Shown one piece after another: positions 2,447-24,000 of a stretch of DNA of 24,000 nt (position 1 is the first letter of the stretch; the number at the start of each line of letters is the position of its first letter). The notes beneath the pieces are model-generated. The model did no database searches. It had not been told where the DNA came from and worked only from the letters and a program-made list of their open reading frames with translations. Position numbers and translations under genes: made by a program. The stretch is from contig JBBRSR010000001.1 of the NCBI GenBank assembly GCA_038245175.1, forward strand, positions 191,744-215,743. Reading direction: 5' to 3'. Source of the stretch: Mycobacteriales bacterium (GTDB lineage: Bacteria > Actinomycetota > Actinomycetes > Mycobacteriales > Nakamurellaceae).

Positions 2447-3922
<1,476 letters not shown>

Positions 3923-3948
3923 CCCGTTCAGCCTGCAACGCAGACCGC

Positions 3949-3994
3949 AACGCGCATCGGCCCTCATCCAGATGGATGGGGGCCGATGTGCGTT
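3949..3994 (+). terminator. Long stem-loop, likely intrinsic terminator after rpfB paralog 1
   Basis: AACGCGCATCGGCCCTCATCC (3949-3969), loop AGAT, GGATGGGGGCCGATGTGCGTT (3974-3994). This gives 21 bp including two G-U pairs. It begins 27 nt after the stop codon and is followed by GTTGTTGCG. Confidence 0.6.
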
Positions 3995-4109
3995 GTTGCG
4001 TGAATCCGTTGTCACCTGAGTGCTTCCTCGCGCTCCGTGGCCGGAATCGGACGAATACGCGCATCTGGTTGAAACCTGAGGGAGCTGGGTCCAATCCAAC
4101 ACGCGCTCA

Positions 4110-4177
4110 TTGCTGAAGTTGTGATGCATCCGTTATCGTCCCGAGATAACAGCCGGGATGGGGAAGTCTCGGGTGTG
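4110..4177 (+). promoter_or_regulatory. Predicted promoter plus conserved 5' leader hairpin, copy 2 (upstream of rpfB paralog 2)
   Basis: TTGCTG (4110-4115), 18-nt spacer, TATCGT (4134-4139), then CAGCCGGGATGGGGAAGTCTCGGGTGTG (4150-4177). CCCGAGA (4140-4146) can pair with TCTCGGG (4167-4173). Confidence 0.45.
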
Positions 4178-4272
4178 TCCAACTGCTGGCGCGACGTCCT
4201 GCGCTGACGGCTGCGCGCGCCTGCCCGCCACACCCCATCAAGCCGGGCTCGTCCACAGTTGGGTATTCGGTC

Positions 4273-5763
4273 TTGACCATCGCTGAGCGTGTTGACACCC
4301 CGCTGGAACCGGCCGAAGCCGATGCCGCCGCGATCGACCCGATACCGGCCAGGCAGGCGACGGGGCGTTGGCGACGGCCGTTGGTCGTCGGGGTCGTCGT
4401 GGCGCTGGCCCTAGTGGCTGCGGTCGGCGGCGGTGTGCTCGCGATGCGCAAGACCGTCACCGTCACCGTGGACGGGGTCTCCACTCCGGTGACCATGCTG
4501 GCTGGAACCGTGCGCGGCGCGTTGGATGCGGCCGGCCTGCAGGTGGCGGACCACGACACGCTGGCTCCGGCCGCCAACGCGATGGTCTCCGACGGCGACT
4601 CCATCGTGCTCAACCGGGGCCGGCACATCACGCTCACCCTGGACGGTGAGCCGTTCAGCCTCTGGACGACCGCCCGCACCCTTGATGCGGCGCTCGCCGA
4701 GCTGGGTCGCAGTCCCGATGCCTACCAGCTGTCCGCCGACCGCTCCCGACCGATTCCGGTCGACGGTCTCGCCGTTTCCGCCGACACCCTGTACCCGGTC
4801 ACAGTCCATGACCGTGGGGTCAGCCGCACCGTGAAGACCACCTCGACGACGGTCGGTCAGTTCCTGGCAGCCCAGGGCATTGTGATGGGCGTGAACGATC
4901 GGGTCAGTCCGGCCGTCGGCGCCAAGATCGCTGGTGCGAGCACCGTCAACATCGTCACGCTGCCCACGGTCACCGTTCTGGACGCGACAGCGCCGGGCAG
5001 GCTCATCGTCAGCGGCGCGGTGGACGTGGCCGGTCTGCTGGCCGGGGCGGGCATCGCGCTGGGGGCGCAGGATGTCGTGTCGGTCCCGCTCAGCACCCCG
5101 CTGTCGGCCGGTTTGCAGATCGGGATCACCCGGATCAGCACCACCAAGGCCAGCGAACTGGTGCCGATCGAGCAGCCCGCGGACCAACAGGTGGACGACG
5201 GCGCCCTGCTCAAGGGCGACTCCAAAGTGGTGCAACAGGGGCAGCTCGGTCAGGCCCAGGTCATGTACGACATCGTCACAACCAACGGGCTCGAAACCTC
5301 GCGGACCGAGACGGGCCGCGTCACCACGGTCGAAGCACTACCGAACGTCATCCACGTCGGCACCAAGGTGATTGCACCGGCTCGTGCGCCGGCACCGGTG
5401 GCGGCCCAGGCGCCCTCGGTCGCAGCGCCGGTGACCCCCCAGCCCACCCCCACCGTGAGCACCAATCCTCCGGTCGCCGCCACCGGAACCGTGGAACGGG
5501 TCGGCAATCAGGTGTTCTTCCACGATTTCGAGTTCGGCGTCAACTGGGACGGCCTCGCGCATTGTGAATCAACTAACAACCCGCGAGCGATCAATGCAAG
5601 TGGAAAATACACCGGCCTGTTCCAGTTCGACGATCAGACCTGGCGAAGTGTTGGTGGCAGCGGTCGGGCGTACGACGCTTCGCCCGAAGAACAGCTGATG
5701 CGGGCCAAGTTGCTCTTCCAGTCCAGGGGCCTCGCACCGTGGGCTTGCGCCTGGGCGGCCTAG
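4273..5763 (+). CDS. RpfB-architecture muralytic protein, paralog 2: TM, four DUF348-like modules, G5, Pro/Ala linker, variant transglycosylase-like domain
   Basis: Same module order as paralog 1. A P/A-rich linker (APARAPAPVAAQAPSVAAPVTPQPTPTV) is inserted before the C-terminal domain VNWDGLAHCESTNNPRAINASGKYTGLFQFDDQTW...[24 protein letters not shown]. The track start is TTG 4273 with no clear SD, so the start is uncertain. Confidence 0.85.
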   Translation: MTIAERVDTPLEPAEADAAAIDPIPARQATGRWRRPLVVGVVVALALVAAVGGGVLAMRKTVTVTVDGVSTPVTMLAGTVRGALDAAGLQVADHDTLAPAANAMVSDGDSIVLNRGRHITLTLDGEPFSLWTTARTLDAALAELGRSPDAYQLSADRSRPIPVDGLAVSADTLYPVTVHDRGVSRTVKTTSTTVGQFLAAQGIVMGVNDRVSPAVGAKIAGASTVNIVTLPTVTVLDATAPGRLIVSGAVDVAGLLAGAGIALGAQDVVSVPLSTPLSAGLQIGITRISTTKASELVPIEQPADQQVDDGALLKGDSKVVQQGQLGQAQVMYDIVTTNGLETSRTETGRVTTVEALPNVIHVGTKVIAPARAPAPVAAQAPSVAAPVTPQPTPTVSTNPPVAATGTVERVGNQVFFHDFEFGVNWDGLAHCESTNNPRAINASGKYTGLFQFDDQTWRSVGGSGRAYDASPEEQLMRAKLLFQSRGLAPWACAWAA

Positions 5764-5794
5764 CCGTTTGCCCAGATCAGCAAGTTGTGGGCAG

Positions 5795-5820
5795 GGTCAT
5801 ATGTGACCTTTCTATTTCCT
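5795..5820 (+). terminator. Weak hairpin plus T-rich tract after paralog 2
   Basis: GGTCA (5795-5799), TATG, TGACC (5804-5808), followed by TTTCTATTTCC. The stem is only 5 bp, so support is weak. Confidence 0.3.
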
Positions 5821-5827
5821 CGCATGA

Positions 5828-5892
5828 TTGCCGTGCATTCATTTCACCGTTATTGTTCTGTTATACAGCCGAGATGGGGAAGTCCCGGATGC
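5828..5892 (+). promoter_or_regulatory. Predicted promoter plus conserved 5' leader hairpin, copy 3 (upstream of rpfB paralog 3)
   Basis: TTGCCG (5828-5833), 17-nt spacer, TATTGT (5851-5856), then CAGCCGAGATGGGGAAGTCCCGGATGC (5866-5892). Confidence 0.5.
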
Positions 5893-5986
5893 CCTTGATT
5901 TGACAGAGCGAACGCCGTCGTCGCCGACGGCCGCTAGCGACGGCATCCAGCCCCCTGCTCGGAAGACCGAGTAAATTTGGAGCATC

Positions 5987-7216
5987 GTGAGCCTGCCCGA
6001 AGCGCAGACCGAAGATCTACGTGAATCGCCTGAAGAATCTGCCACAGACATCGCATCATCTGCTACCCCTATTTCAGGCCGGTCCGGCTGGACCCGGCTA
6101 CGCAAGCCCGTGCTGATCGCCGGCGTCTGCACCCTCGTCGCCGCGACGGCCTTGTCCGGAATCTGGGCGGCCAGCGGCAAGACCGTCACCATCGAGGTCG
6201 ACGGCCAGAGCCGTGAGGTCAGCACGCTGTCCGGATCGGTCAGCGGCGCTCTGGCGTCCGCCGGGATCGCCGTGACCGAGCACGACACCGTCGCTCCCGC
6301 CGCCGACGCGGCAATTTCCGACGGGTCCAGGATTGCGATCAATCGCGGTCGCCAGTTGACCGTCACCATCGACGGCGTCTCGCATGTCATCTGGACCACT
6401 GCACTGACCGTCGATCAGGCGCTGGCCCAGCTCGGGCAGGGTCAGCAGAGCCTGGAGCTGTCGGCAGACCGATCGCGGGCGATTCCCCTCGAAGGGATGA
6501 CGCTGACGGCCGATACTCTTCACGTAGTGTCGCTGACCGACGGCACCGGCCTTCCGACGACGTCCGCCTCCAGTGCCGTCAACGTCGGAGCCATGCTCGC
6601 CGAGAAGCAGATCGTCCTCGGCCCGAACGACACCGTCGCACCGGCCCCGACCACGCCCATCACCGACGGACTCGCGGTCAGCATCACCCGCACCGTGATC
6701 ACCTCCGCGGTGGCCGACGAGGCGGTGGCGCAGCCCGCCGACGTTCCCACCGAGGATCCGAATCTGGCCCGGGGCACCAGCACCGTGACCATCGCCGGGT
6801 CGGCCGGCACCGCCGCGGTGACGTACCAAATCACCATGGTCAACGGGGTGCAGACCGACAAGCACGAGGTCAGCCGCACCGTCACCGTCGCCCCGGTCGC
6901 CTCGCAGATCTCGGTCGGTACCAAGTCGTCACTCACCTACGTCGGCAACCAGGTGTTCTTCAACGACACCGAGTTCGGCGTGAACTGGGATGGCCTGGCC
7001 AACTGTGAGTCCACGCACAACCCGCGGGCGATCAACGGGAACCCGTCCGCCGGCCTGCCGACCTATGGCTTGTTCCAGTTCGACCTGCCCACCTGGGCGT
7101 CGGTCGGTGGATCCGGCAATCCGATCGACGCCACCCCCGAAGAGCAGATCTTGCGCGCCAAGCTGCTCTTCCAGTCGCGCGGACTCGAGCCGTGGGCCTG
7201 CCGGTACGCGGCGTAG
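5987..7216 (+). CDS. RpfB-architecture muralytic protein, paralog 3: TM, three DUF348-like modules, G5, variant transglycosylase-like domain; sits directly upstream of rsmA
   Basis: GTG 5987 is preceded by GGAG (5979-5982). It shares an identical 26-nt stretch with paralog 1 (2750-2775 = 6224-6249, encoding TLSGSVSGA). C-terminus is [39 protein letters not shown]...[27 protein letters not shown] at 7214-7216. Confidence 0.88.
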
Positions 7217-17732: not shown

Positions 17733-18302
17733 TCAGTGCCAGCGGTTCTGTGCCTCGACCAGGCCGAGTTCGAGGAGTAGCTCGGTGGCGTCGGCGGCCC
17801 GTTCCAGTTCCACCGCAAGTTCTTTGCGCTCTGTCCCAGAGAAATCCTTGAGTACGTAATCGGCCGGGTCCTGCCGACCGGGTGGCCGGGAAATGCCGAA
17901 CCGGACCCGGGCGTAGTCCTTGGTGCCCAGGCTGCTGGAGATCGACCGCAGGCCGTTGTGGCCGCCCTCGCCGCCGCCGGATTTGAGTCGGATGGTGCCG
18001 AACGGCAGATCGAGCTCGTCGTGGACGACCACCACGTCGGCCGGTTCGATCTTGAAGAATCGGGCCAGTCCGGCAGTCGCGCCACCGGCCAGGTTCATGT
18101 ACGACCGCGGTTTCCCGATAACCACGCGGGTCTGGCCGATCCGTCCCTCAGCGATGTCGGCGCCGGCTTTGTGGGCCTTGAATCGGCTGCCGATCCGGCC
18201 GGCGAGCACGTCGGCCACCATCGCGCCGGCGTTGTGCCGGTTCCCGGCATAGCCGGGACCAGGATTGCCGAGCCCGATGATCAGTGTGAGTTCTGCTGTC
18301 AT
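17733..18302 (-). CDS. pth: Peptidyl-tRNA hydrolase
   Basis: [40 protein letters not shown] and RVRFGI are canonical Pth motifs. ATG at 18302 gives 189 aa. The track start at 18470 is an extension into rplY. Confidence 0.93.
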
Positions 18303-18339
18303 CGGGGCCCGGCATCCACACATCCGTCGGTGCGGACGG

Positions 18340-18936
18340 CTACTTCTCCTCTTCGACTTCGGCTTCGGTCGTGTCGGCGACCGCATCGACCTCTTCCTCG
18401 GTCTCGTTCGCGACGCCGACGACCAGCGCCTCGGGATCGGAGGCCAGGGTTGCGCCTTCGGGCAGGACAACCTGACCGGCCAGGATCTGAGTGCCGGCCT
18501 CGAGGCCCTCGACGGAGACCTCGATGTGGTCCGGGATGCTCAGCGCGTCCACCTCGATGGACAGGCTGGTCTGGTCGTTGAGGATCATGGTGCTGGGAGC
18601 GGCTTCGCCGGTGACAACGATCTGGACGTCGACGGTGACCTTCTCGCCGCGGCGGACCAGCAGCAGGTCGACGTGCTCGACGTAGTCGCGCAGCGGGTGC
18701 TTGACGACAGCCTTCGGCAGCGCCAGCTCGTCACCGGTCGGCAGTTCCAGGGTCAGCACGGTGTTCGCGCCGCCCTTCATCGCGCGGGTGAAGTCGCGGG
18801 CACCGAAGGTGAAGTGGCGCGGGTCGCTGCCGTGCCCGTACAGCACGGCGGGGATCTTGCCGGCGGCGCGGGCGCGGCGCGAGGCGCCCTTGCCGAACTC
18901 GGTGCGGGCTTCGGCGGCGATTCGGACTTCGGACAC
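18340..18936 (-). CDS. rplY: 50S ribosomal protein L25 / general stress protein Ctc
   Basis: [26 protein letters not shown] matches the L25/Ctc N-terminus. Two-domain length with an acidic C-terminal tail. GTG 18936 is preceded by AAGGAG 7 nt upstream on the minus strand. Confidence 0.92.
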
Positions 18937-19180: not shown

Positions 19181-19999
19181 ATGCCAGCGCCGATCGTGAT
19201 CGATCGCGACAACCCGACTCCGCTGTACGCACAGATCGCCGCCCAGTTGCGCGCGCAGATCGATACGGGCGCGCTGAAGCCGGGGGACCGGATCGACAAC
19301 GAGGAAGTACTGGCCGCGCGGCTCGCATTGTCCCGGCCGACGATAGCCAGGGCGATCAACGAACTGGTGGCACAGGGGCTGGTTGTGCGCCGGCGCGGGT
19401 TCGGTACCGAGGTGACCAATTCGGTGCAGCACCGGCGGCTGGAGCTGACCAGCCTCTACGAGGATCTGGTGCGCAACGGGCGGCGACCGAGCACCCAGGT
19501 GTTGGCCATCGAGCAGGTCCTCGATGGCCGGGCCGCGATCCTGCTGGGGCTGTCCCCGGTGACCCCGCTGGTCCACCTGCGAAGGCTGCGGTCCGCCGAG
19601 GCGGTACCGATCGCGTTGATGGAGAACTGGCTGCCCGGCGGCTTTGCGGACCTGACCCAAGCGGAGCTGGTCGCTGATGGGTTGTACGGGGTGCTGCGCG
19701 CCCGCGGCGCCGGCCCGGCGGCGGCCCGGCAGCAGCTCGGTGCCAAGGCCGCCGGTGCGATGGAGGCGCGGTTACTGCAGGTTCGCCGCGGCACTCCGCT
19801 GATGACCATGGCCAGCCTGGCGTACGACGTCGACGGCGTGCCGGTCGAGTGCGGCACCCACGTGTACCGGGCCGACATCTACTCCATCGAGGTTCTGGTC
19901 CACTCCCTGAGCGCCGCGACGAATGAGTCGACGTCGCCCTCGGTGGTGTCCCATGAGCACATCCAGCGGACCTCGCCGGTGGCGACATCCCAGTCGTAG
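19181..19999 (+). CDS. GntR-family transcriptional regulator, HutC subfamily (wHTH plus UTRA-like effector domain)
   Basis: N-terminal PLYAQIAAQLRAQIDTGALKPGDRI..EEVLAARLALSRPTIARAINELVAQGLVVRRRGFGTEV is a GntR wHTH. The C-terminal part ending ..THVYRADIYSIEV resembles UTRA. GAGGA abuts ATG 19181, so GTG 19196 may be the real start. The 3' end overlaps the convergent aldolase gene. Confidence 0.82.
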   Translation: MPAPIVIDRDNPTPLYAQIAAQLRAQIDTGALKPGDRIDNEEVLAARLALSRPTIARAINELVAQGLVVRRRGFGTEVTNSVQHRRLELTSLYEDLVRNGRRPSTQVLAIEQVLDGRAAILLGLSPVTPLVHLRRLRSAEAVPIALMENWLPGGFADLTQAELVADGLYGVLRARGAGPAAARQQLGAKAAGAMEARLLQVRRGTPLMTMASLAYDVDGVPVECGTHVYRADIYSIEVLVHSLSAATNESTSPSVVSHEHIQRTSPVATSQS

Positions 20000-20937
20000 A
20001 ACCGGAATTGCTCGCGAACCTGGTCGGCGACGCCGTCCGGCAGGATGGCGAAGACCGCGTTGGCCTGGGTACTGCGGGTGATCTTCACCTGGTCGAGAGC
20101 GGCGGCGCCTTCGGTGAGTCGCTGGGCCATCGAGTTCGCATGAGTCGCCGACCGGAGCCACAGGTCACCCTCGAACAGAGCGATCAGCTGGGCGGAGATG
20201 AACCGCATCTTCGAGGCCAGTTGCATGTTCATTTTGCGCAGGTACTTCAGGCCGGCGCCGGCGGCCGGGTTCAGCACCACCACAGCCTCGCCGCCGAGCA
20301 GTCCGTTCTTCGTGCCGCCGAGGGAGATGATGTCGACCCCGGCGTCAGTTGTGAAGGCGCGCATGGGTTCGCCCAGGGCGGCCGCGGCATTGGCGATCCG
20401 TGAACCGTCCAGGTGCACCAACAGGCCCAGGCCGTGCGCGTGGTCGCAGATGGCCCTGATCTCCGCGACGGAATAGATCGTGCCGAGCTCCGTGGACTGG
20501 GTGATTGACACAACCGCCGGTTGCGCCCGATGCTCGTCGCCGAATCCCCAGGCCTGCTTGTCGATCAGCCCCGGGGTCAACTTGCCGTCCGGGGTGGCGA
20601 CGGTCAGCAGCTTGATGCCCGCCACCCGCTCCGGTGCGCCGTTTTCGTCGGTGTTGATGTGCGCCGTCTCGGCGCACACCACCGCCCCCCACGGCGCCAA
20701 CATCGATTGCAGCGCAAGGACATTCGCTCCGGTCCCGTTGAAAACCGGGAATCCGACAGCCCGCTCGCCGAAGTGTCCGCGGAGCACCTCCTGCAGGCGC
20801 GCGGTGTAGACGTCGTCGCCGTAGGCGATCTGATGGCCGCCGTTGGCCGCGGCCAGCGCGGTCAGGATCTCCGGATGAACCCCGGCGTAATTGTCGGAGG
20901 CAAAGCCGCGAATTTCGGGATCGTGGAGAGTGGTCAC
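19879..20937 (-). CDS. ltaE: Low-specificity threonine aldolase-like PLP enzyme (beta-eliminating lyase family)
   Basis: FASDNYAGVHPEIL, YGDDVYT, FNGTGANVLAL, AHI.TDE, HLDGSRIANAA and SLGGTKNG (PLP Lys) motifs. GTG 20937 overlaps the upstream gene's TGA (GTGA). 352 aa. The track start at 21276 is an extension. Confidence 0.85.
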   Translation of the reverse strand: MTTLHDPEIRGFASDNYAGVHPEILTALAAANGGHQIAYGDDVYTARLQEVLRGHFGERAVGFPVFNGTGANVLALQSMLAPWGAVVCAETAHINTDENGAPERVAGIKLLTVATPDGKLTPGLIDKQAWGFGDEHRAQPAVVSITQSTELGTIYSVAEIRAICDHAHGLGLLVHLDGSRIANAAAALGEPMRAFTTDAGVDIISLGGTKNGLLGGEAVVVLNPAAGAGLKYLRKMNMQLASKMRFISAQLIALFEGDLWLRSATHANSMAQRLTEGAAALDQVKITRSTQANAVFAILPDGVADQVREQFRFYDWDVATGEVRWMCSWDTTEGDVDSFVAALREWTRTSME

Positions 20938-22655
20938 ACCACTGATTCTGGCATTGTTTGCGGCATCGATCCGCTGCCGGTGATCCCGGCCGTGGAGACC
21001 ACCACATCGGAGAGCTTGCGGGACAGTGCCTCGTAGAACATCGACAACGGGAACTCGTCCGGCAGGACCGCGTCGGTGAGTCCCTTCGGTGGCCCATTCA
21101 ACGGCAACGCCGACGGTCCCTTCGCCCAGACCGAGGCGGGGTGCGGGGTCAAGATGCCACTGATGAGTTCGTAGGCCGCGAGCCAGTGCGAAATCTTCGG
21201 CCGGTCGATGGAACGCCAGTACAGGTCCTCGATCTGACGGTGCAGGTCCAGCACCGCTTCGGTGACATGCTCCCACTCGATCGAGAGCCGATTGTCTGTC
21301 CAGTGCAACACATGTCGCTGGTGCAGATGGGCAAAAAGCAGCTGCCCGCCGAGCCCGTCATAGTTGCGAACGCGGCCACCGGTGATGGCGAAGCGGAAGA
21401 TCCGGTCGAACAGAATCGCATACTGCACCAGGCGGGCCTGGCCGACCCCGGTGCCTTCCAGTCGAACCGACTCCCGGAAAGCGGTCAGATCGCAGCGCAG
21501 TTCCTCCAGTGAGTACAGGAAGTACGGCATCCGCTGCTTGATCATGAACGGGTCGAAGGGCAGGTCCCCGTGCATGTGGGTGCGGTCATGGATCAGGTCC
21601 CACATGACGAACGTCTGCTCGGCCAGCTCCTGGTCATCGAGCAGTCTGGCCGCCTCGGGGGGCAGGGTCAGCCCGGTGGTAGGCGCGGCGGCGCCGGCCA
21701 CCCGGCGGAAGCGGGCAGCCTCTCGGTCGGCGAAAATGGCGCCCCAGGTGAACTTCGGGACCTCCCGCATGGCAACGGTTTCCGGGAACAGCACCGCGGA
21801 ATTGGTGTCGTAGCCGGCGGTGAAGTCCAGGAAGCGGACCGGCACGAACAGCTTGTTGGAGTAGTCGCCCTGTTCCAGCGCGTCGACGAATTCCGGCCAG
21901 ATCACTTCCAGCAGTACGGCTTCGACTCGCCGATCTGGACTGCCGTTCTGGGTGTACATCGGGAATACCACCAGGTGTTTCAGGCCGTCGATCCGGTTCT
22001 TCTCGGGATGGAAGGCGTTGAGAGAGTCCAGGAAGTCCGGCCTTTCGAATCCGCCGTCGGCCCAGCGGGTGAAATCCTTTACCAGGGACTGCAAGTAGTC
22101 CGCGTCATGCTCGAAATGAGTTGCCAGCGCTTCGATGTCGGTGATTAGTTGTTGGGTCAGGCGGGCCGCGGCCGAGTGGCTGGCGGTTTCGGGTACCGAG
22201 CCGTCGGCCGCTTGCAGCAGGGCCAGGTCGGTGGCCGCCTGCTTGAGCGACTGCCAATGCTGATCGCCGGCCGGCGAATCCGTTACTTCCCGTGGCCGAC
22301 GAGCGCCGGTCGGCGCCGCAGCCCAGCTGATCATGTTGACGATCAGTTCGGCGTGCCCGACGTCCGTCGGATCCAGGTCGAGATCGGTGGCAGCGCGTCG
22401 GTTGCCGTCGGTGGTGAGTTCGAGGTGGGTGGTGCCGGGGTTCAAGCCCGTGCGGGCGAAAAGGTCATAAGCGATCGGTGAGCGGGCCGGGTAGTCGTCG
22501 GTGCCGGTGACCGTCAGGGCGCCCGCCGAGCTATCGATTACTACGTCCGCGGCGGCGGCATCGCCGGTCCTTCGGTAGCCCCGGCTGGTGAGCAGAGGTG
22601 CCCACACATCGGCTGCGTCCTGCGCCCAGTACACCTGCGGAAATCCCGTCATCAC
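20934..22655 (-). CDS. Conserved hypothetical protein (573 aa), function unknown; HDxxH...EE motif
   Basis: Long ORF with gene-like, GC3-rich codon usage and no recognisable characterised domain by eye. Contains WDLIHDRTHMHGDLPFDPF...LYSLEELRCD. GTG 22655 is immediately followed by ATG 22652, and GGAG lies 6 nt before the ATG, so 22652 may be the true start. Confidence 0.7.
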   Translation of the reverse strand: MMTGFPQVYWAQDAADVWAPLLTSRGYRRTGDAAAADVVIDSSAGALTVTGTDDYPARSPIAYDLFARTGLNPGTTHLELTTDGNRRAATDLDLDPTDVGHAELIVNMISWAAAPTGARRPREVTDSPAGDQHWQSLKQAATDLALLQAADGSVPETASHSAAARLTQQLITDIEALATHFEHDADYLQSLVKDFTRWADGGFERPDFLDSLNAFHPEKNRIDGLKHLVVFPMYTQNGSPDRRVEAVLLEVIWPEFVDALEQGDYSNKLFVPVRFLDFTAGYDTNSAVLFPETVAMREVPKFTWGAIFADREAARFRRVAGAAAPTTGLTLPPEAARLLDDQELAEQTFVMWDLIHDRTHMHGDLPFDPFMIKQRMPYFLYSLEELRCDLTAFRESVRLEGTGVGQARLVQYAILFDRIFRFAITGGRVRNYDGLGGQLLFAHLHQRHVLHWTDNRLSIEWEHVTEAVLDLHRQIEDLYWRSIDRPKISHWLAAYELISGILTPHPASVWAKGPSALPLNGPPKGLTDAVLPDEFPLSMFYEALSRKLSDVVVSTAGITGSGSMPQTMPESVV

Positions 22656-22788
22656 CAGCTCCGTTCACTCATTCACCGGGCCAAATCCCAGTAGAAAGTT
22701 CGATCTTCGGTCCAGGCTACCGTAAATTATCCGGTGACTGGGGGGATTGACCGGAAATAGTGAGGAGGTCGACCGGTGGCAGTTTCGG

Positions 22789-24000
22789 TCAGCCGAGCGG
22801 GTCGACACTGCGCTGATCGTTGTCCAGCACGAACTCGGCCCAGCGATAGCCATCCCACCAGCGATGGTGATGGCGGCCGGACGGGTCCGGGTAGAAGGCC
22901 GGCTGCAGATACGGGGCAGGGATGGTGTCGGCTGTCGCGGGAAACGGCGTCGCGGTTGGCAACTGGGTGGCGGGAAACGTCGGTGCAATGGGGAACTGGG
23001 TGCCGGGGAACTGGGTGTTGGGGAACTGGGTGCCGGGGAACTGGCCCTGCCCCGGGAACTGCCCGACGGCCGGGAACTGGGTGGTCGGCACCGGCGCCGG
23101 CGCCTGCCACAGCGCCGTGGTCTTGGCCAGCCCCCGGAAATCGAACTGGCACTTGGAACACTCGCGCAGTGCCGCCTCGCCGCGTTGGTCCCCGCACTGC
23201 GGGCAGAATGTGATCAACGAGTTCTCGGCATGCAGGCCCTGGCAGCGTGGGCAGACGAATTCCGGATCCAGTTGGTTGAGCTGAGCCAGTTTGCCGATCA
23301 ACACGAACGGCGACACGCCCTGCGAGCTGACGAAAAGGCCGACGCTGCTTTGCAGGGTCCGGATTTTGCTGGTGCGGCTCTTCAACCGCGCATAGTCCGG
23401 GTTCACCACCTTGGCCAGCCGGCAGGTGACGCAGACCTGCAACGAGCGCAGCGGGACCGTCTCCCGAATGCGCGCCTGCTGGACCAGGAATTCCACCACC
23501 GGGACGGCGGCCGGTTCGAGTTGGATCCAGGAGTTGCCCGCCCACGATCCCGCGGTCTGCAGCAACCCCTCCAGGCGGCCGACCAGCTGCTCCACCTGTG
23601 AGACCAGCTTCGCCGGCATCGGTCCGGGCCGGGCGGCGACCAGGGCACCGGCGGTCACCATGCCGTAGACGGTTTCGATAGGCAGGGTGGCGACGCCGCG
23701 CGGCGTCATCACGGCGACGTTGCCGGTGTCCCGCCACCCCTTCGGCGCCTCTCCCTGGTCATTGTCCAGGTATCGGTTCGCGACCTGGGTCACCTTCGCG
23801 GTGGTCCGCCCGGCGGCGCCGTTGGCCGCGACGCCGACGTGGGTGCTCCGGGTCGGCGGCGGGAACTCGGCGGCCGACGGGTCAACCCGGCGCAACGCCG
23901 CATCAACGCCGTCCAGAACGTCGGCGATGATCTCCTGATACACCGCGATCGGGCGGGCGATCGGCAATTTCCAGCCGTCCCGGACCTCGATCCACAACGA
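22789..24000 (-). CDS. Hypothetical protein with Zn-ribbon-like CxxC pairs, QFP-repeat linker and a DUF2510-like C-terminus; 5' end probably outside the window
   Basis: The frame stays open to the window edge, and the track start at 23997 is only a TTG. CxxC pairs: CVTC, CPRC...CPQC, CSKC. Repeat TQFPAVGQFPGQGQFPGTQFPNTQFPGTQFP. C-terminal FYPDPSGRHHHRWWDGYRWAEFV resembles the DUF2510 signature (YPDP..G...R.WDG..W). Confidence 0.7.
   Translation of the reverse strand, partial: SLWIEVRDGWKLPIARPIAVYQEIIADVLDGVDAALRRVDPSAAEFPPPTRSTHVGVAANGAAGRTTAKVTQVANRYLDNDQGEAPKGWRDTGNVAVMTPRGVATLPIETVYGMVTAGALVAARPGPMPAKLVSQVEQLVGRLEGLLQTAGSWAGNSWIQLEPAAVPVVEFLVQQARIRETVPLRSLQVCVTCRLAKVVNPDYARLKSRTSKIRTLQSSVGLFVSSQGVSPFVLIGKLAQLNQLDPEFVCPRCQGLHAENSLITFCPQCGDQRGEAALRECSKCQFDFRGLAKTTALWQAPAPVPTTQFPAVGQFPGQGQFPGTQFPNTQFPGTQFPIAPTFPATQLPTATPFPATADTIPAPYLQPAFYPDPSGRHHHRWWDGYRWAEFVLDNDQRSVDPLG
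22939..23086. repeat. Coding tandem repeat with a 15-bp core period (GGGAACTGGGTGYYG)
   Basis: Three adjacent near-identical 15-mers at 22991-23005, 23006-23020 and 23021-23035, flanked by degenerate GGGAACTG / GGGAAAC units. On the minus strand these encode the xxQFP pentapeptide repeats. Confidence 0.85.

What the first reader, a model, noticed from the sequence alone, without database searches (positions are those of the whole stretch)
19879..22655. Uncharacterised 573-aa protein with start/stop overlap to a threonine-aldolase-like PLP enzyme, next to a HutC-type regulator
The large ORF (20934-22655) ends in a GTGA overlap with the aldolase start (20934-20937), suggesting a functional pair. 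I cannot assign it to a characterised family. It contains IHDRTHMHGD followed about 24 residues later by LEELRCD. This is reminiscent of an HExxH...E gluzincin-type metal site with Asp replacing the catalytic Glu, but that comparison is speculative. A metal-dependent enzyme paired with a beta-hydroxy-amino-acid aldolase under a GntR/HutC regulator would fit an undescribed small catabolic or salvage module for a hydroxy-amino-acid-containing substrate. I think it may match an actinobacterial DUF family, but I cannot name one reliably.
Basis: partly seen in the sequence, partly recalled or inferred. Interest (0 to 1): 0.6.

Follow-up and report, generated by a model that had tools for sequence, protein, structure and literature searches.

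The report
PolE-family iron oxidase paired with threonine aldolase
The "uncharacterised" 573-aa protein is a typical member of the actinobacterial DUF6421 family, whose one studied member (PolE) is an iron- and pterin-dependent amino-acid oxidase. Its coupling to a threonine aldolase is conserved across Actinomycetes, the link to the HutC regulator is not, and the reaction the pair catalyses is still unknown.

Summary
ORF 20934-22655 (-) is real and coding over its whole length. It ends in a GTGA overlap with a 352-aa L-threonine-aldolase-family gene and carries HDRTH-x23-EELRCD.

It is not an orphan. It matches Pfam DUF6421 at 768 bits. An AlphaFold model (pLDDT 92) is closest to the solved PolE structures ("Fe2+/pterin-dependent"), then to M49 DPP III peptidases. 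PolE is the only characterised member, an Fe(II)/tetrahydropterin-dependent L-Ile desaturase with the motif HE/DxxH-x(21-23)-E.

The aldolase link is strongly conserved. All 72 other DUF6421-positive genomes in a sample of 295 good-quality genomes of the class have the aldolase, about 68 of them within 3 kb downstream on the same strand. An SDR gene usually lies between the two. This genome lacks it.

The aldolase also occurs without DUF6421. The HutC/GntR gene is convergent and is not a conserved neighbour.

Best reading: an O2-activating amino-acid oxidase or hydroxylase whose beta-hydroxy product the aldolase cleaves to glycine plus an aldehyde. The substrate is unknown.

This scan has flagged the same operon several times on other DNA. 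Verdict: a new member of a known, barely studied family; moderate interest.

The parts
20934..22655 (-). DUF6421 (PolE-family) gene. The ORF runs from GTG 22655; the likeliest start is ATG 22652 (572 aa).
   Evidence: Pfam PF19985, 767.8 bits, E 3.6e-231, residues 132-560. GC3 profile and RBS. AF2 pLDDT 92.3. Foldseek top hits are PolE structures 9j3g/9j2e.
22263..22652 (-). N-terminal ~130-aa alpha/beta domain. It is a reduced remnant of the DUF4350/ThuA/GIFT-like (class-I glutamine-amidotransferase-like, non-catalytic) domain carried by the ~700-aa forms.
   Evidence: No Pfam hit of its own. Residues 78-113 align with the tail of the N-domain of the 702-aa homologue P0127 by BLASTP; phmmer extends this to 21-551 vs 159-695. 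Long forms carry PF14258/PF09822/PF06283/PF23355. Modelled at pLDDT 72-95.
21489..21593 (-). Predicted metal site: H356-D-R-T-H360, x23, E384-E385-L-R387-C-D389.
   Evidence: Coordinates. H356, D357 and H360 are nearly invariant; E384, E385, R387 and D389 are invariant in 37 diverse homologues. They align with H-E-x-x-H and L-E-E-L-R-V-D of SnPolE. The published motif is HE/DxxHx(21-23)E, and mutating it abolished activity (PMC12614342).
21354..21410 (-). Further family-invariant core: FDRIFR (D417, R418, R421) and RNYDG...Q (Y432, D433, Q438).
   Evidence: invariant columns. One search aligns Y432 with SnPolE Y280, a residue the depositors mutated (PDB 9j30). Coordinates.
20934..20937 (-). 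GTGA stop/start overlap between DUF6421 and the aldolase.
   Evidence: In relatives, 4- or 8-nt overlaps join DUF6421 to the next gene in 20 of 77 loci.
19879..20937 (-). L-threonine-aldolase-family PLP enzyme, 352 aa.
   Evidence: PF01212, 163.7 bits. PDB L-threonine aldolases 7w0i and 5vye and the P. putida aldolase 1v72, E 1e-72 to 1e-82, aligned end to end.
20308..20310 (-). Codon of K210 in GGTKNG, the presumed PLP Schiff-base lysine.
   Evidence: GGTKNG is conserved in the alignments with 7w0i and 5vye. Coordinates. The assignment as the Schiff-base lysine rests on my knowledge of the family.
22656..22788 (-). 133-nt intergenic region upstream of DUF6421, the likely promoter region. No riboswitch.
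   Evidence: Sequence and RBS. No Rfam family at gathering score in the window or 7 related loci. No consensus sigma-70 site there.
19181..19999 (+). GntR/HutC-type regulator. It is an adjacent gene, convergent, and probably not part of the module.
   Evidence: PF00392 + PF07702. Its last ~40 codons are antisense to the aldolase 3' end. It is not a conserved neighbour.

Best explanation
The 572/573-aa protein belongs to the core clade of the DUF6421 (PolE) family. It has a DPP III-derived fold in which the old zincin site has become a 2-His-1-Glu site (H356, H360, E384). By analogy with PolE, this site binds Fe(II) and, with a reduced pterin as co-substrate, activates O2 to oxidise an unactivated C-H bond of a free alpha-amino acid. 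The gene is translationally coupled to an L-threonine-aldolase-family PLP enzyme. The most economical pathway is hydroxylation at C-beta to give a beta-hydroxy-alpha-amino acid, followed by retro-aldol cleavage by the aldolase to glycine plus an aldehyde or ketone. Where the SDR is present, it would then reduce that carbonyl or otherwise process it. This is the same logic as trimethyllysine hydroxylase plus HTML aldolase in carnitine biosynthesis. Shown here: family membership, fold, conserved site, conserved operon. Inferred: Fe and pterin dependence (from PolE only), an amino-acid substrate, beta-hydroxylation, and the direction of the aldolase reaction. My odds: DUF6421 membership about 0.97; O2-activating Fe oxidase acting on an amino acid about 0.6; the specific hydroxylate-then-cleave route about 0.3. 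The substrate is unknown.
For: Family: PF19985 at 768 bits against a cut-off of 25; single copy in the genome. Fold: AF2 pLDDT 92.3; Foldseek best hits are PolE structures titled 'Fe2+/pterin-dependent' (9j3g, 9j2e, 9j33; E about 1e-12, TM to target 0.76-0.80), followed by DPP III. Site: HDRTH-x23-EELRCD fits the published HE/DxxHx(21-23)E motif. Soluble PolE mutants in the motif lost all detectable activity, and PolE activity strictly needed Fe2+, O2 and BH4 (PMC12614342). The blocks H..H, EELR.D, (D/E)R..R and NYD..Q are shared with SnPolE and are invariant or nearly invariant in 37 homologues. Coupling: GTGA overlap. In the genus, 15 of 15 DUF6421-positive genomes have the aldolase. In the class sample, all 72 other DUF6421-positive genomes have an aldolase at 56% identity or more, about 68 of them within 3 kb downstream on the same strand. 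The aldolase lay downstream on the same strand in most of the 80 named loci from Microbacterium, Leifsonia, Cellulomonas, Arthrobacter and Streptacidiphilus. Junctions are tight. The aldolase is full-length with an intact GGTKNG. An Lrp/AsnC regulator, typical of amino-acid operons, lies divergent in 23 Microbacterium-type loci.
Against: Only one family member has been assayed, and it is remote: 16-18% identity in the structural alignments, phmmer E 1e-11 over 140 residues. PolE desaturates rather than hydroxylates and has no aldolase partner. The aldolase orthologue also occurs without DUF6421. Examples are glmU-prs-aldolase-rplY-pth in two well-assembled congeners and about 25 genomes in the class sample, so it may simply be the housekeeping threonine aldolase. 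No pterin gene is linked to the operon. PCD is near-universal in the class (247 of 295) and is missing from four complete DUF6421-positive genomes. The SDR is a generic FabG-like SDR with no affinity to dihydropteridine reductases. Metal identity cannot be read from sequence.
Confidence: 0.55

Rival explanations
1. Biosynthetic direction. The aldolase condenses glycine with an aldehyde to make a beta-hydroxy amino acid. DUF6421 (with the SDR) then tailors it, or supplies a desaturated or hydroxylated amino acid, to make an unusual amino acid or small metabolite, as PolE does in polyoxin biosynthesis.
For: PolE works in a biosynthetic pathway, and its authors propose that DUF6421 enzymes produce unusual amino acids. 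Threonine aldolases are reversible (established knowledge). The NCBIfam hit to the GntG guanitoxin aldolase subfamily is weak, 70.8 bits against a cut-off of 230.
Against: There are no NRPS, carrier-protein, ligase or export genes in this locus. The genus array sits among housekeeping genes, glmU-prs-[...]-rplY-pth. The gene is single-copy and present in 20 of 20 genomes of one large-genome genus and in 28 of 141 genera sampled, which looks more like primary metabolism than a natural-product cluster. Gene order puts the aldolase last.
Confidence: 0.15
2. Hydrolase reading. DUF6421 is still a zincin-type Zn hydrolase with Asp as the general base. It releases a beta-hydroxy amino acid from a peptide or N-acyl conjugate for the aldolase to cleave.
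For: The fold is related to M49 DPP III (Foldseek E 4e-8 to 1e-3). EELRCD resembles the second M49 motif EExR(K)A(E/D), which I cite from my own knowledge. His-His-Glu is also a classic Zn site.
Against: No peptidase family scores at E <= 0.1. The catalytic Glu is replaced by Asp in almost the whole core clade. According to PMC12614342, the HExxGH motif and the catalytic His of DPP III are not conserved in DUF6421, and PolE showed Fe2+/O2/BH4-dependent oxidation. TM-scores to DPP III are only about 0.35, against 0.76-0.80 to PolE.
Confidence: 0.12
3. The adjacency carries no pathway meaning. The aldolase is the lineage's ordinary threonine aldolase, and DUF6421 (+SDR) is an independent module that settled upstream of it and is inherited with it.
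For: The aldolase occurs alone at the same locus in congeners and in about 25 other genomes. In many Microbacterium loci an antisense MFS gene, or 1.4-6 kb of other genes, separates SDR and aldolase. The tightest coupling is DUF6421-SDR, not DUF6421-aldolase.
Against: DUF6421 was never found without the aldolase in 15 + 72 genomes from many families. The two stay within 3 kb and on one strand despite rearranged flanks. When the SDR is lost, DUF6421 abuts or overlaps the aldolase (L111; G188, G323, G044, G080 and G106). That pattern is not expected from drift alone.
Confidence: 0.12

Closest known systems
PolE of the polyoxin pathway (DUF6421; PDB 9j2e, 9j2m, 9j2p, 9j3g): Fe(II)/tetrahydropterin-dependent L-isoleucine 3,4-desaturase (PMC12614342)
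   Same: Same Pfam family and same fold (Foldseek prob 1.0, TM to target 0.76-0.80). Same H-x3-H-x23-E site and shared EELR.D, (D/E)R..R and NYD..Q blocks.
   Different: Only 16-18% identity. Ours has HDxxH rather than HExxH. It is about 200 aa longer, with an extra N-terminal remnant domain and a larger N-lobe. PolE's partner PolF (DUF6202) was not searched for. Ours is instead coupled to a threonine aldolase, usually with an SDR. It sits in a housekeeping region, not an antibiotic cluster. PolE-like paralogues score only 50-64 bits on the Pfam model, against more than 500 bits for the core clade.
M49 dipeptidyl-peptidase III (e.g. 5zum, 6eom, 3t6b)
   Same: Ancestral fold, and a His/His/Glu site carried on two helices with an EExRxD-like second motif.
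   Different: No HExxGH. Asp replaces the catalytic Glu. No Pfam M49 hit. TM only about 0.35. The characterised relative is an oxidase, not a peptidase.
Aromatic amino-acid hydroxylases (Biopterin_H, PF00351)
   Same: Proposed chemistry: a 2-His-1-carboxylate Fe(II) site using a tetrahydropterin to activate O2 on an amino acid (per PMC12614342).
   Different: Unrelated fold and sequence. No PF00351 gene in this genome.
Trimethyllysine hydroxylase + HTML aldolase step of carnitine biosynthesis (from my own knowledge)
   Same: Pathway logic only: beta-hydroxylation of an amino acid, then PLP-dependent retro-aldol cleavage to glycine plus an aldehyde, then a dehydrogenase.
   Different: The hydroxylase there is Fe/2-oxoglutarate-dependent and unrelated. 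Nothing here points to trimethyllysine.
Pseudomonas-type L-threonine aldolase / phenylserine aldolase (5vye, 7w0i, 1v72)
   Same: The partner enzyme aligns end to end at E 1e-72 to 1e-82, with GGTKNG conserved.
   Different: It is below the NCBIfam cut-offs for LtaE and GntG. Its substrate range in Actinomycetes was not found in the searched literature.

Membership tests
DUF6421 / PolE family (PF19985) | Pfam HMM score above the gathering threshold over the full model | tested here: met
   767.8 bits against 25; model positions 2-436 of 437.
DUF6421 / PolE family (PF19985) | Motif HE/DxxH-x(21-23)-E (PMC12614342) | tested here: met
   H356-D-R-T-H360, then 23 residues, then E384. Conserved in 37 homologues.
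DUF6421 / PolE family (PF19985) | Fold of the solved PolE structures | tested here: met
   AF2 pLDDT 92.3. Foldseek hits 9j3g, 9j2e and 9j33 at E about 1e-12, TM to target 0.76-0.80.
DUF6421 / PolE family (PF19985) | Fe(II)-, O2- and tetrahydropterin-dependent oxidation of an amino acid | not testable with these tools
   Known only for PolE. Needs a biochemical assay.
M49 dipeptidyl-peptidase III | HExxGH / HExxxH zinc motif with a catalytic Glu | tested here: not met
   The sequence is HDRTH; Asp357 is nearly invariant in the clade.
M49 dipeptidyl-peptidase III | Sequence-profile membership | tested here: not met
   No peptidase family at E <= 0.1 in Pfam or NCBIfam. Structural similarity is only distant (TM about 0.35).
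L-threonine aldolase family (partner gene) | Beta_elim_lyase / threonine aldolase profile and full-length alignment to solved L-TAs | tested here: met
   PF01212 at 163.7 bits. 7w0i at E 2.4e-82 and 5vye at E 3.2e-79, residues 10-345.
L-threonine aldolase family (partner gene) | PLP-binding lysine | tested here: met
   K210 in GGTKNG aligns with the same motif in 7w0i and 5vye. The Schiff-base role is assigned from my knowledge of the family.
   No GntR within 8 kb in the 80 loci. Absent from L105-L108. Genus homologues are only 42-49% identical, and only G015 has one adjacent.
Dihydropteridine reductase (role considered for the SDR of relatives) | Closest sequence or structure neighbours are QDPR, PTR1 or FolM | tested here: not met
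   Best PDB and Foldseek neighbours are FabG and glucose/ribitol dehydrogenases. No NCBIfam family above its cut-off.

The most novel reading that the evidence does not exclude
The DUF6421-(SDR)-threonine aldolase operon encodes an undescribed, widespread actinobacterial route of primary metabolism. An O2- and pterin-dependent beta-hydroxylase makes an ordinary amino acid cleavable by a threonine aldolase, yielding glycine plus an aldehyde. That would be a new oxidative side-chain-cleavage route for amino-acid catabolism or glycine supply, and the first physiological role for reduced pterins as oxygenase cofactors in Actinomycetes that lack aromatic amino-acid hydroxylases.
Probability: 0.25. 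Interest if true: 0.75.

Novelty: new member of a known kind. Interest (0 to 1): 0.45.

Why it matters
DUF6421 is a large family. Its authors count about 10,000 homologues, and only one enzyme, from an antibiotic pathway, has been studied. The clade found here makes up most of the family. It is single-copy, 60-78% identical across actinobacterial orders, and present in about a quarter of the genomes sampled in the class, including every genome of one large-genome genus. It is always accompanied by the same aldolase.

Working out its substrate would assign a function to thousands of genes. It could also reveal a new oxygen-dependent amino-acid pathway, and a use for reduced pterins in bacteria that have no aromatic amino-acid hydroxylase.

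For this window in particular, the result corrects the proposed regulator link and shows a reduced two-gene version of the operon.

Tried and rejected
1. SDR-aldolase "Rosetta-stone" fusion. A 654-aa ORF in L097 with both domains turned out to be a frameshifted SDR in a MAG. It is not evidence of a fusion.

2. SDR as a dedicated dihydropteridine reductase. Neither the sequence searches (PDB, NCBIfam) nor the AF2 model plus Foldseek showed any affinity to QDPR, PTR1 or FolM. It looks like a generic FabG-like SDR. The idea is not refuted, but it is unsupported.

3. Co-occurrence with pterin recycling. PCD (PF01329) is in 247 of 295 genomes of the class and is missing from four complete DUF6421-positive genomes, so it is uninformative. 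The own genome has 2 PCD homologues, 1 PTPS/QueD homologue and no Biopterin_H.

4. Riboswitch or leader upstream. No Rfam family at gathering score in the window or 7 related loci. No convincing sigma-70 or terminator pattern.

5. HutC/GntR as the operon regulator. Rejected.

6. An SDR orthologue elsewhere in this genome. The best match is 32% identical, so the SDR is lost here rather than relocated.

7. Literature on the core clade. Only PMC12614342 mentions DUF6421. No paper was found for the SnPolE/SmPolE PDB entries or for the aldolase operon.

8. A phenylserine idea (Phe beta-hydroxylation, then phenylserine aldolase and an SDR dehydrogenase). It came from my memory, I could not test it, and it remains speculation only.


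Full report
**Observation**

The minus-strand ORF 20934-22655 is present. Third-position GC stays at 0.8 or more from about codon 22 onward, so the poorly conserved N-terminal ~130 residues are translated. The best start is ATG 22652, with GGAG 6 nt upstream, which gives 572 aa. Congeners begin the same way, MTxFPxV.

The TGA stop (20936-20934) overlaps the GTG (20937-20935) that opens a 352-aa ORF. That ORF's N-terminus (xTLHD...GFASDNYAG) matches relatives from residue 1.

**What the large protein is**

It matches Pfam DUF6421 (PF19985) at 767.8 bits over the whole model. NCBIfam has no model for it. It is single-copy in this genome.

The only paper in the library that mentions the family (PMC12614342, Nat Chem 2025) shows the following:
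- PolE, a DUF6421 member from the polyoxin cluster, is an L-isoleucine 3,4-desaturase.
- Its activity strictly needs Fe2+, O2 and tetrahydrobiopterin.
- Soluble mutants in the HExxHxnE motif lost all detectable activity.
- The family has a DPP III-like fold but lacks the peptidase's HExxGH motif and catalytic His.
- The family shares the motif HE/DxxHx(21-23)E.

Our protein has H356-D-R-T-H360-x23-E384. In an alignment of 37 homologues down to 26% identity, E384, E385, R387, D389, D417, R418, R421 and Q438 are invariant, and H356, D357, H360 and D433 are nearly so. phmmer against the PDB finds the PolE structures (SnPolE, SmPolE) at E about 1e-11. In that alignment H..H, EELR.D, (D/E)R..R and NYD..Q line up, and our Y432 matches SnPolE Y280, a residue the depositors mutated.

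An AlphaFold2 model (pLDDT 92.3, pTM 0.93) is closest to those PolE structures, which are titled "Fe2+/pterin-dependent" (E about 1e-12, TM to target 0.76-0.80). Next come M49 DPP III structures (E 4e-8 to 1e-3, TM about 0.35). The family's known chemistry, however, is oxidative rather than hydrolytic.

**N-terminal region**

Many orthologues are about 700 aa and carry a DUF4350/ABC_transp_aux/ThuA/GIFT-like N-domain. Ours keeps only its last part. Residues 78-113 align with the end of that domain in a 702-aa homologue, and phmmer extends the match back to residue 21. The region has no Pfam hit of its own.

**The partner**

The 352-aa protein is a full-length threonine-aldolase-family PLP enzyme. 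It hits PF01212. It aligns end to end with L-threonine aldolases 7w0i and 5vye and the P. putida aldolase 1v72 (E 1e-72 to 1e-82), with GGTKNG conserved. It is below the NCBIfam cut-offs for LtaE and GntG.

**Conservation of the pair**

The organism is a Nakamurella, judging by the names attached to the best hits.
- In the genus, 15 of 24 genomes have DUF6421, and all 15 have the aldolase.
- In every fetched genus locus long enough to show it, the aldolase is downstream on the same strand.
- The genus array is glmU-prs-[DUF6421-(SDR)]-aldolase-rplY-pth.
- In 80 named loci from other Actinomycetes (Microbacterium, Leifsonia, Cellulomonas, Arthrobacter, Streptacidiphilus and others), the aldolase (64-75% identical) is downstream on the same strand in most.
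- In an even sample of 295 good-quality genomes of the class, 72 genomes from 28 of 141 genera have DUF6421, including 20 of 20 genomes of one genus with 6-10 Mb genomes. The core-clade gene scores above 500 bits and is almost always the only such gene in the genome.
- Excluding this genome, 72 genomes of that sample carry DUF6421. All 72 have the aldolase. By my comparison of coordinates, about 68 have it within 3 kb downstream on the same strand, three have it 13-25 kb away, and one has it on another contig.

The dependence runs in one direction only. The aldolase orthologue occurs without DUF6421 in two well-assembled congeners, at the same locus (glmU-prs-aldolase-rplY-pth). It also does so in about 25 genomes of the class sample.

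The class tallies include four genomes that the tool flags as unpublished (G059, G064, G071, G282). None of the four has a DUF6421 hit, and no conclusion depends on them.

**A third gene that this genome lacks**

In most loci a ~245-aa SDR (adh_short, catalytic YAA[AV]K) lies between DUF6421 and the aldolase. It overlaps the DUF6421 stop by 4 or 8 nt in 20 of 77 loci.

This window has no SDR, and the genome has no orthologue elsewhere; the best match is 32% identical. Several other lineages have also lost it, and DUF6421 then abuts the aldolase (L111). The SDR is therefore dispensable or replaceable. It is a generic FabG-like SDR by sequence and by AF2 plus Foldseek, with no affinity to pteridine reductases.

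**Regulator**

The GntR+UTRA gene (19181-19999, +) converges on the aldolase. Its last ~40 codons are antisense to the aldolase 3' end, a 121-nt overlap.
- No GntR homologue lies within 8 kb in the 80 loci.
- Congeners go straight from the aldolase to rplY.
- Genus homologues are only 42-49% identical. One (G015) lies beside the aldolase; the rest are 5-30 kb away or elsewhere.
- In Microbacterium-type loci the recurrent regulator is a divergent Lrp/AsnC gene. An MFS gene often lies antisense between the SDR and the aldolase.

**Mechanism**

Family membership, the fold, the conserved 2-His-1-Glu site and the operon are shown here. Fe and pterin dependence and an amino-acid substrate are inferred from PolE alone.

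Because DUF6421 never occurs without a beta-hydroxy-amino-acid aldolase, the simplest pathway is C-beta hydroxylation followed by retro-aldol cleavage to glycine plus an aldehyde. The SDR would act on the carbonyl product. The logic parallels trimethyllysine hydroxylase plus HTML aldolase in carnitine biosynthesis, which I cite from my own knowledge.

I give about 0.6 to "Fe-dependent O2-activating amino-acid oxidase" and about 0.3 to the specific route. The rivals are a biosynthetic direction, a residual hydrolase, and adjacency without pathway meaning. They are set out separately with their tests.

No pterin genes are linked to the operon, and PCD is too widespread in the class to be informative. 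No riboswitch was found.

**Novelty and verdict**

The protein is a typical member of a family that has been named and has one characterised, distant member. The authors of that work already noted that family members sit next to amino-acid-modifying enzymes. This scan has flagged the same DUF6421-SDR-aldolase operon several times on other DNA.

What this window adds is a clear two-gene (SDR-less) version with a truncated N-domain, evidence that the aldolase is the obligatory partner, and rejection of the HutC link. I rate it a new member of a known kind, with moderate interest (0.45), because the physiological reaction of a very widespread operon is still unknown and is directly testable.

Noticed in passing
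window 19879-19999: The GntR/HutC ORF and the aldolase ORF converge and overlap by 121 nt. The regulator's last ~40 residues, after the UTRA domain ends near aa 234, are encoded antisense to the aldolase C-terminus and even match the antisense of a distant aldolase gene in tblastn.
   Followed up: partly
window 2561-7216: Three tandem paralogues with RpfB-like architecture (DUF348 repeats, a G5 domain and a transglycosylase-like domain) lie in the metG-tatD-...-ksgA region, where Mycobacterium tuberculosis has a single rpfB (the synteny comparison is from my memory).
   Followed up: no
window 22789-24000: The upstream neighbour is a 403-aa (5'-open) protein with only a C-terminal DUF2510 hit. 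It takes the place that prs/glmU occupy in congeners. An earlier first-stage note on this window reports 15-bp tandem repeats in it.
   Followed up: no
window 18340-18470: The listed Pth ORF (17733-18470) overlaps the 3' end of the L25 gene by 131 nt. The Pth domain starts only at aa 63, so the true pth start is probably further downstream.
   Followed up: no
L097:9439-11403: An apparent 654-aa SDR-aldolase fusion in a MAG is really an SDR with a frameshift (frame 1, then frame 2) followed by the aldolase. It is a sequencing error or a pseudogene.
   Followed up: yes
G293:C18:52690-54000 (genome search): The DUF6421 gene is broken into pieces with an internal TAG while the downstream aldolase is still present. 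This looks like a decaying copy.
   Followed up: no
G043:C1:938370-939677 and G043:C17:172508-173815: One genome has two full-length core-clade DUF6421 genes. Only the first has the aldolase beside it.
   Followed up: no
L029:2444-2505: A guanidine-III riboswitch and a cluster of four tRNA genes lie about 6 kb upstream of the Arthrobacter DUF6421 gene. Probably unrelated.
   Followed up: no
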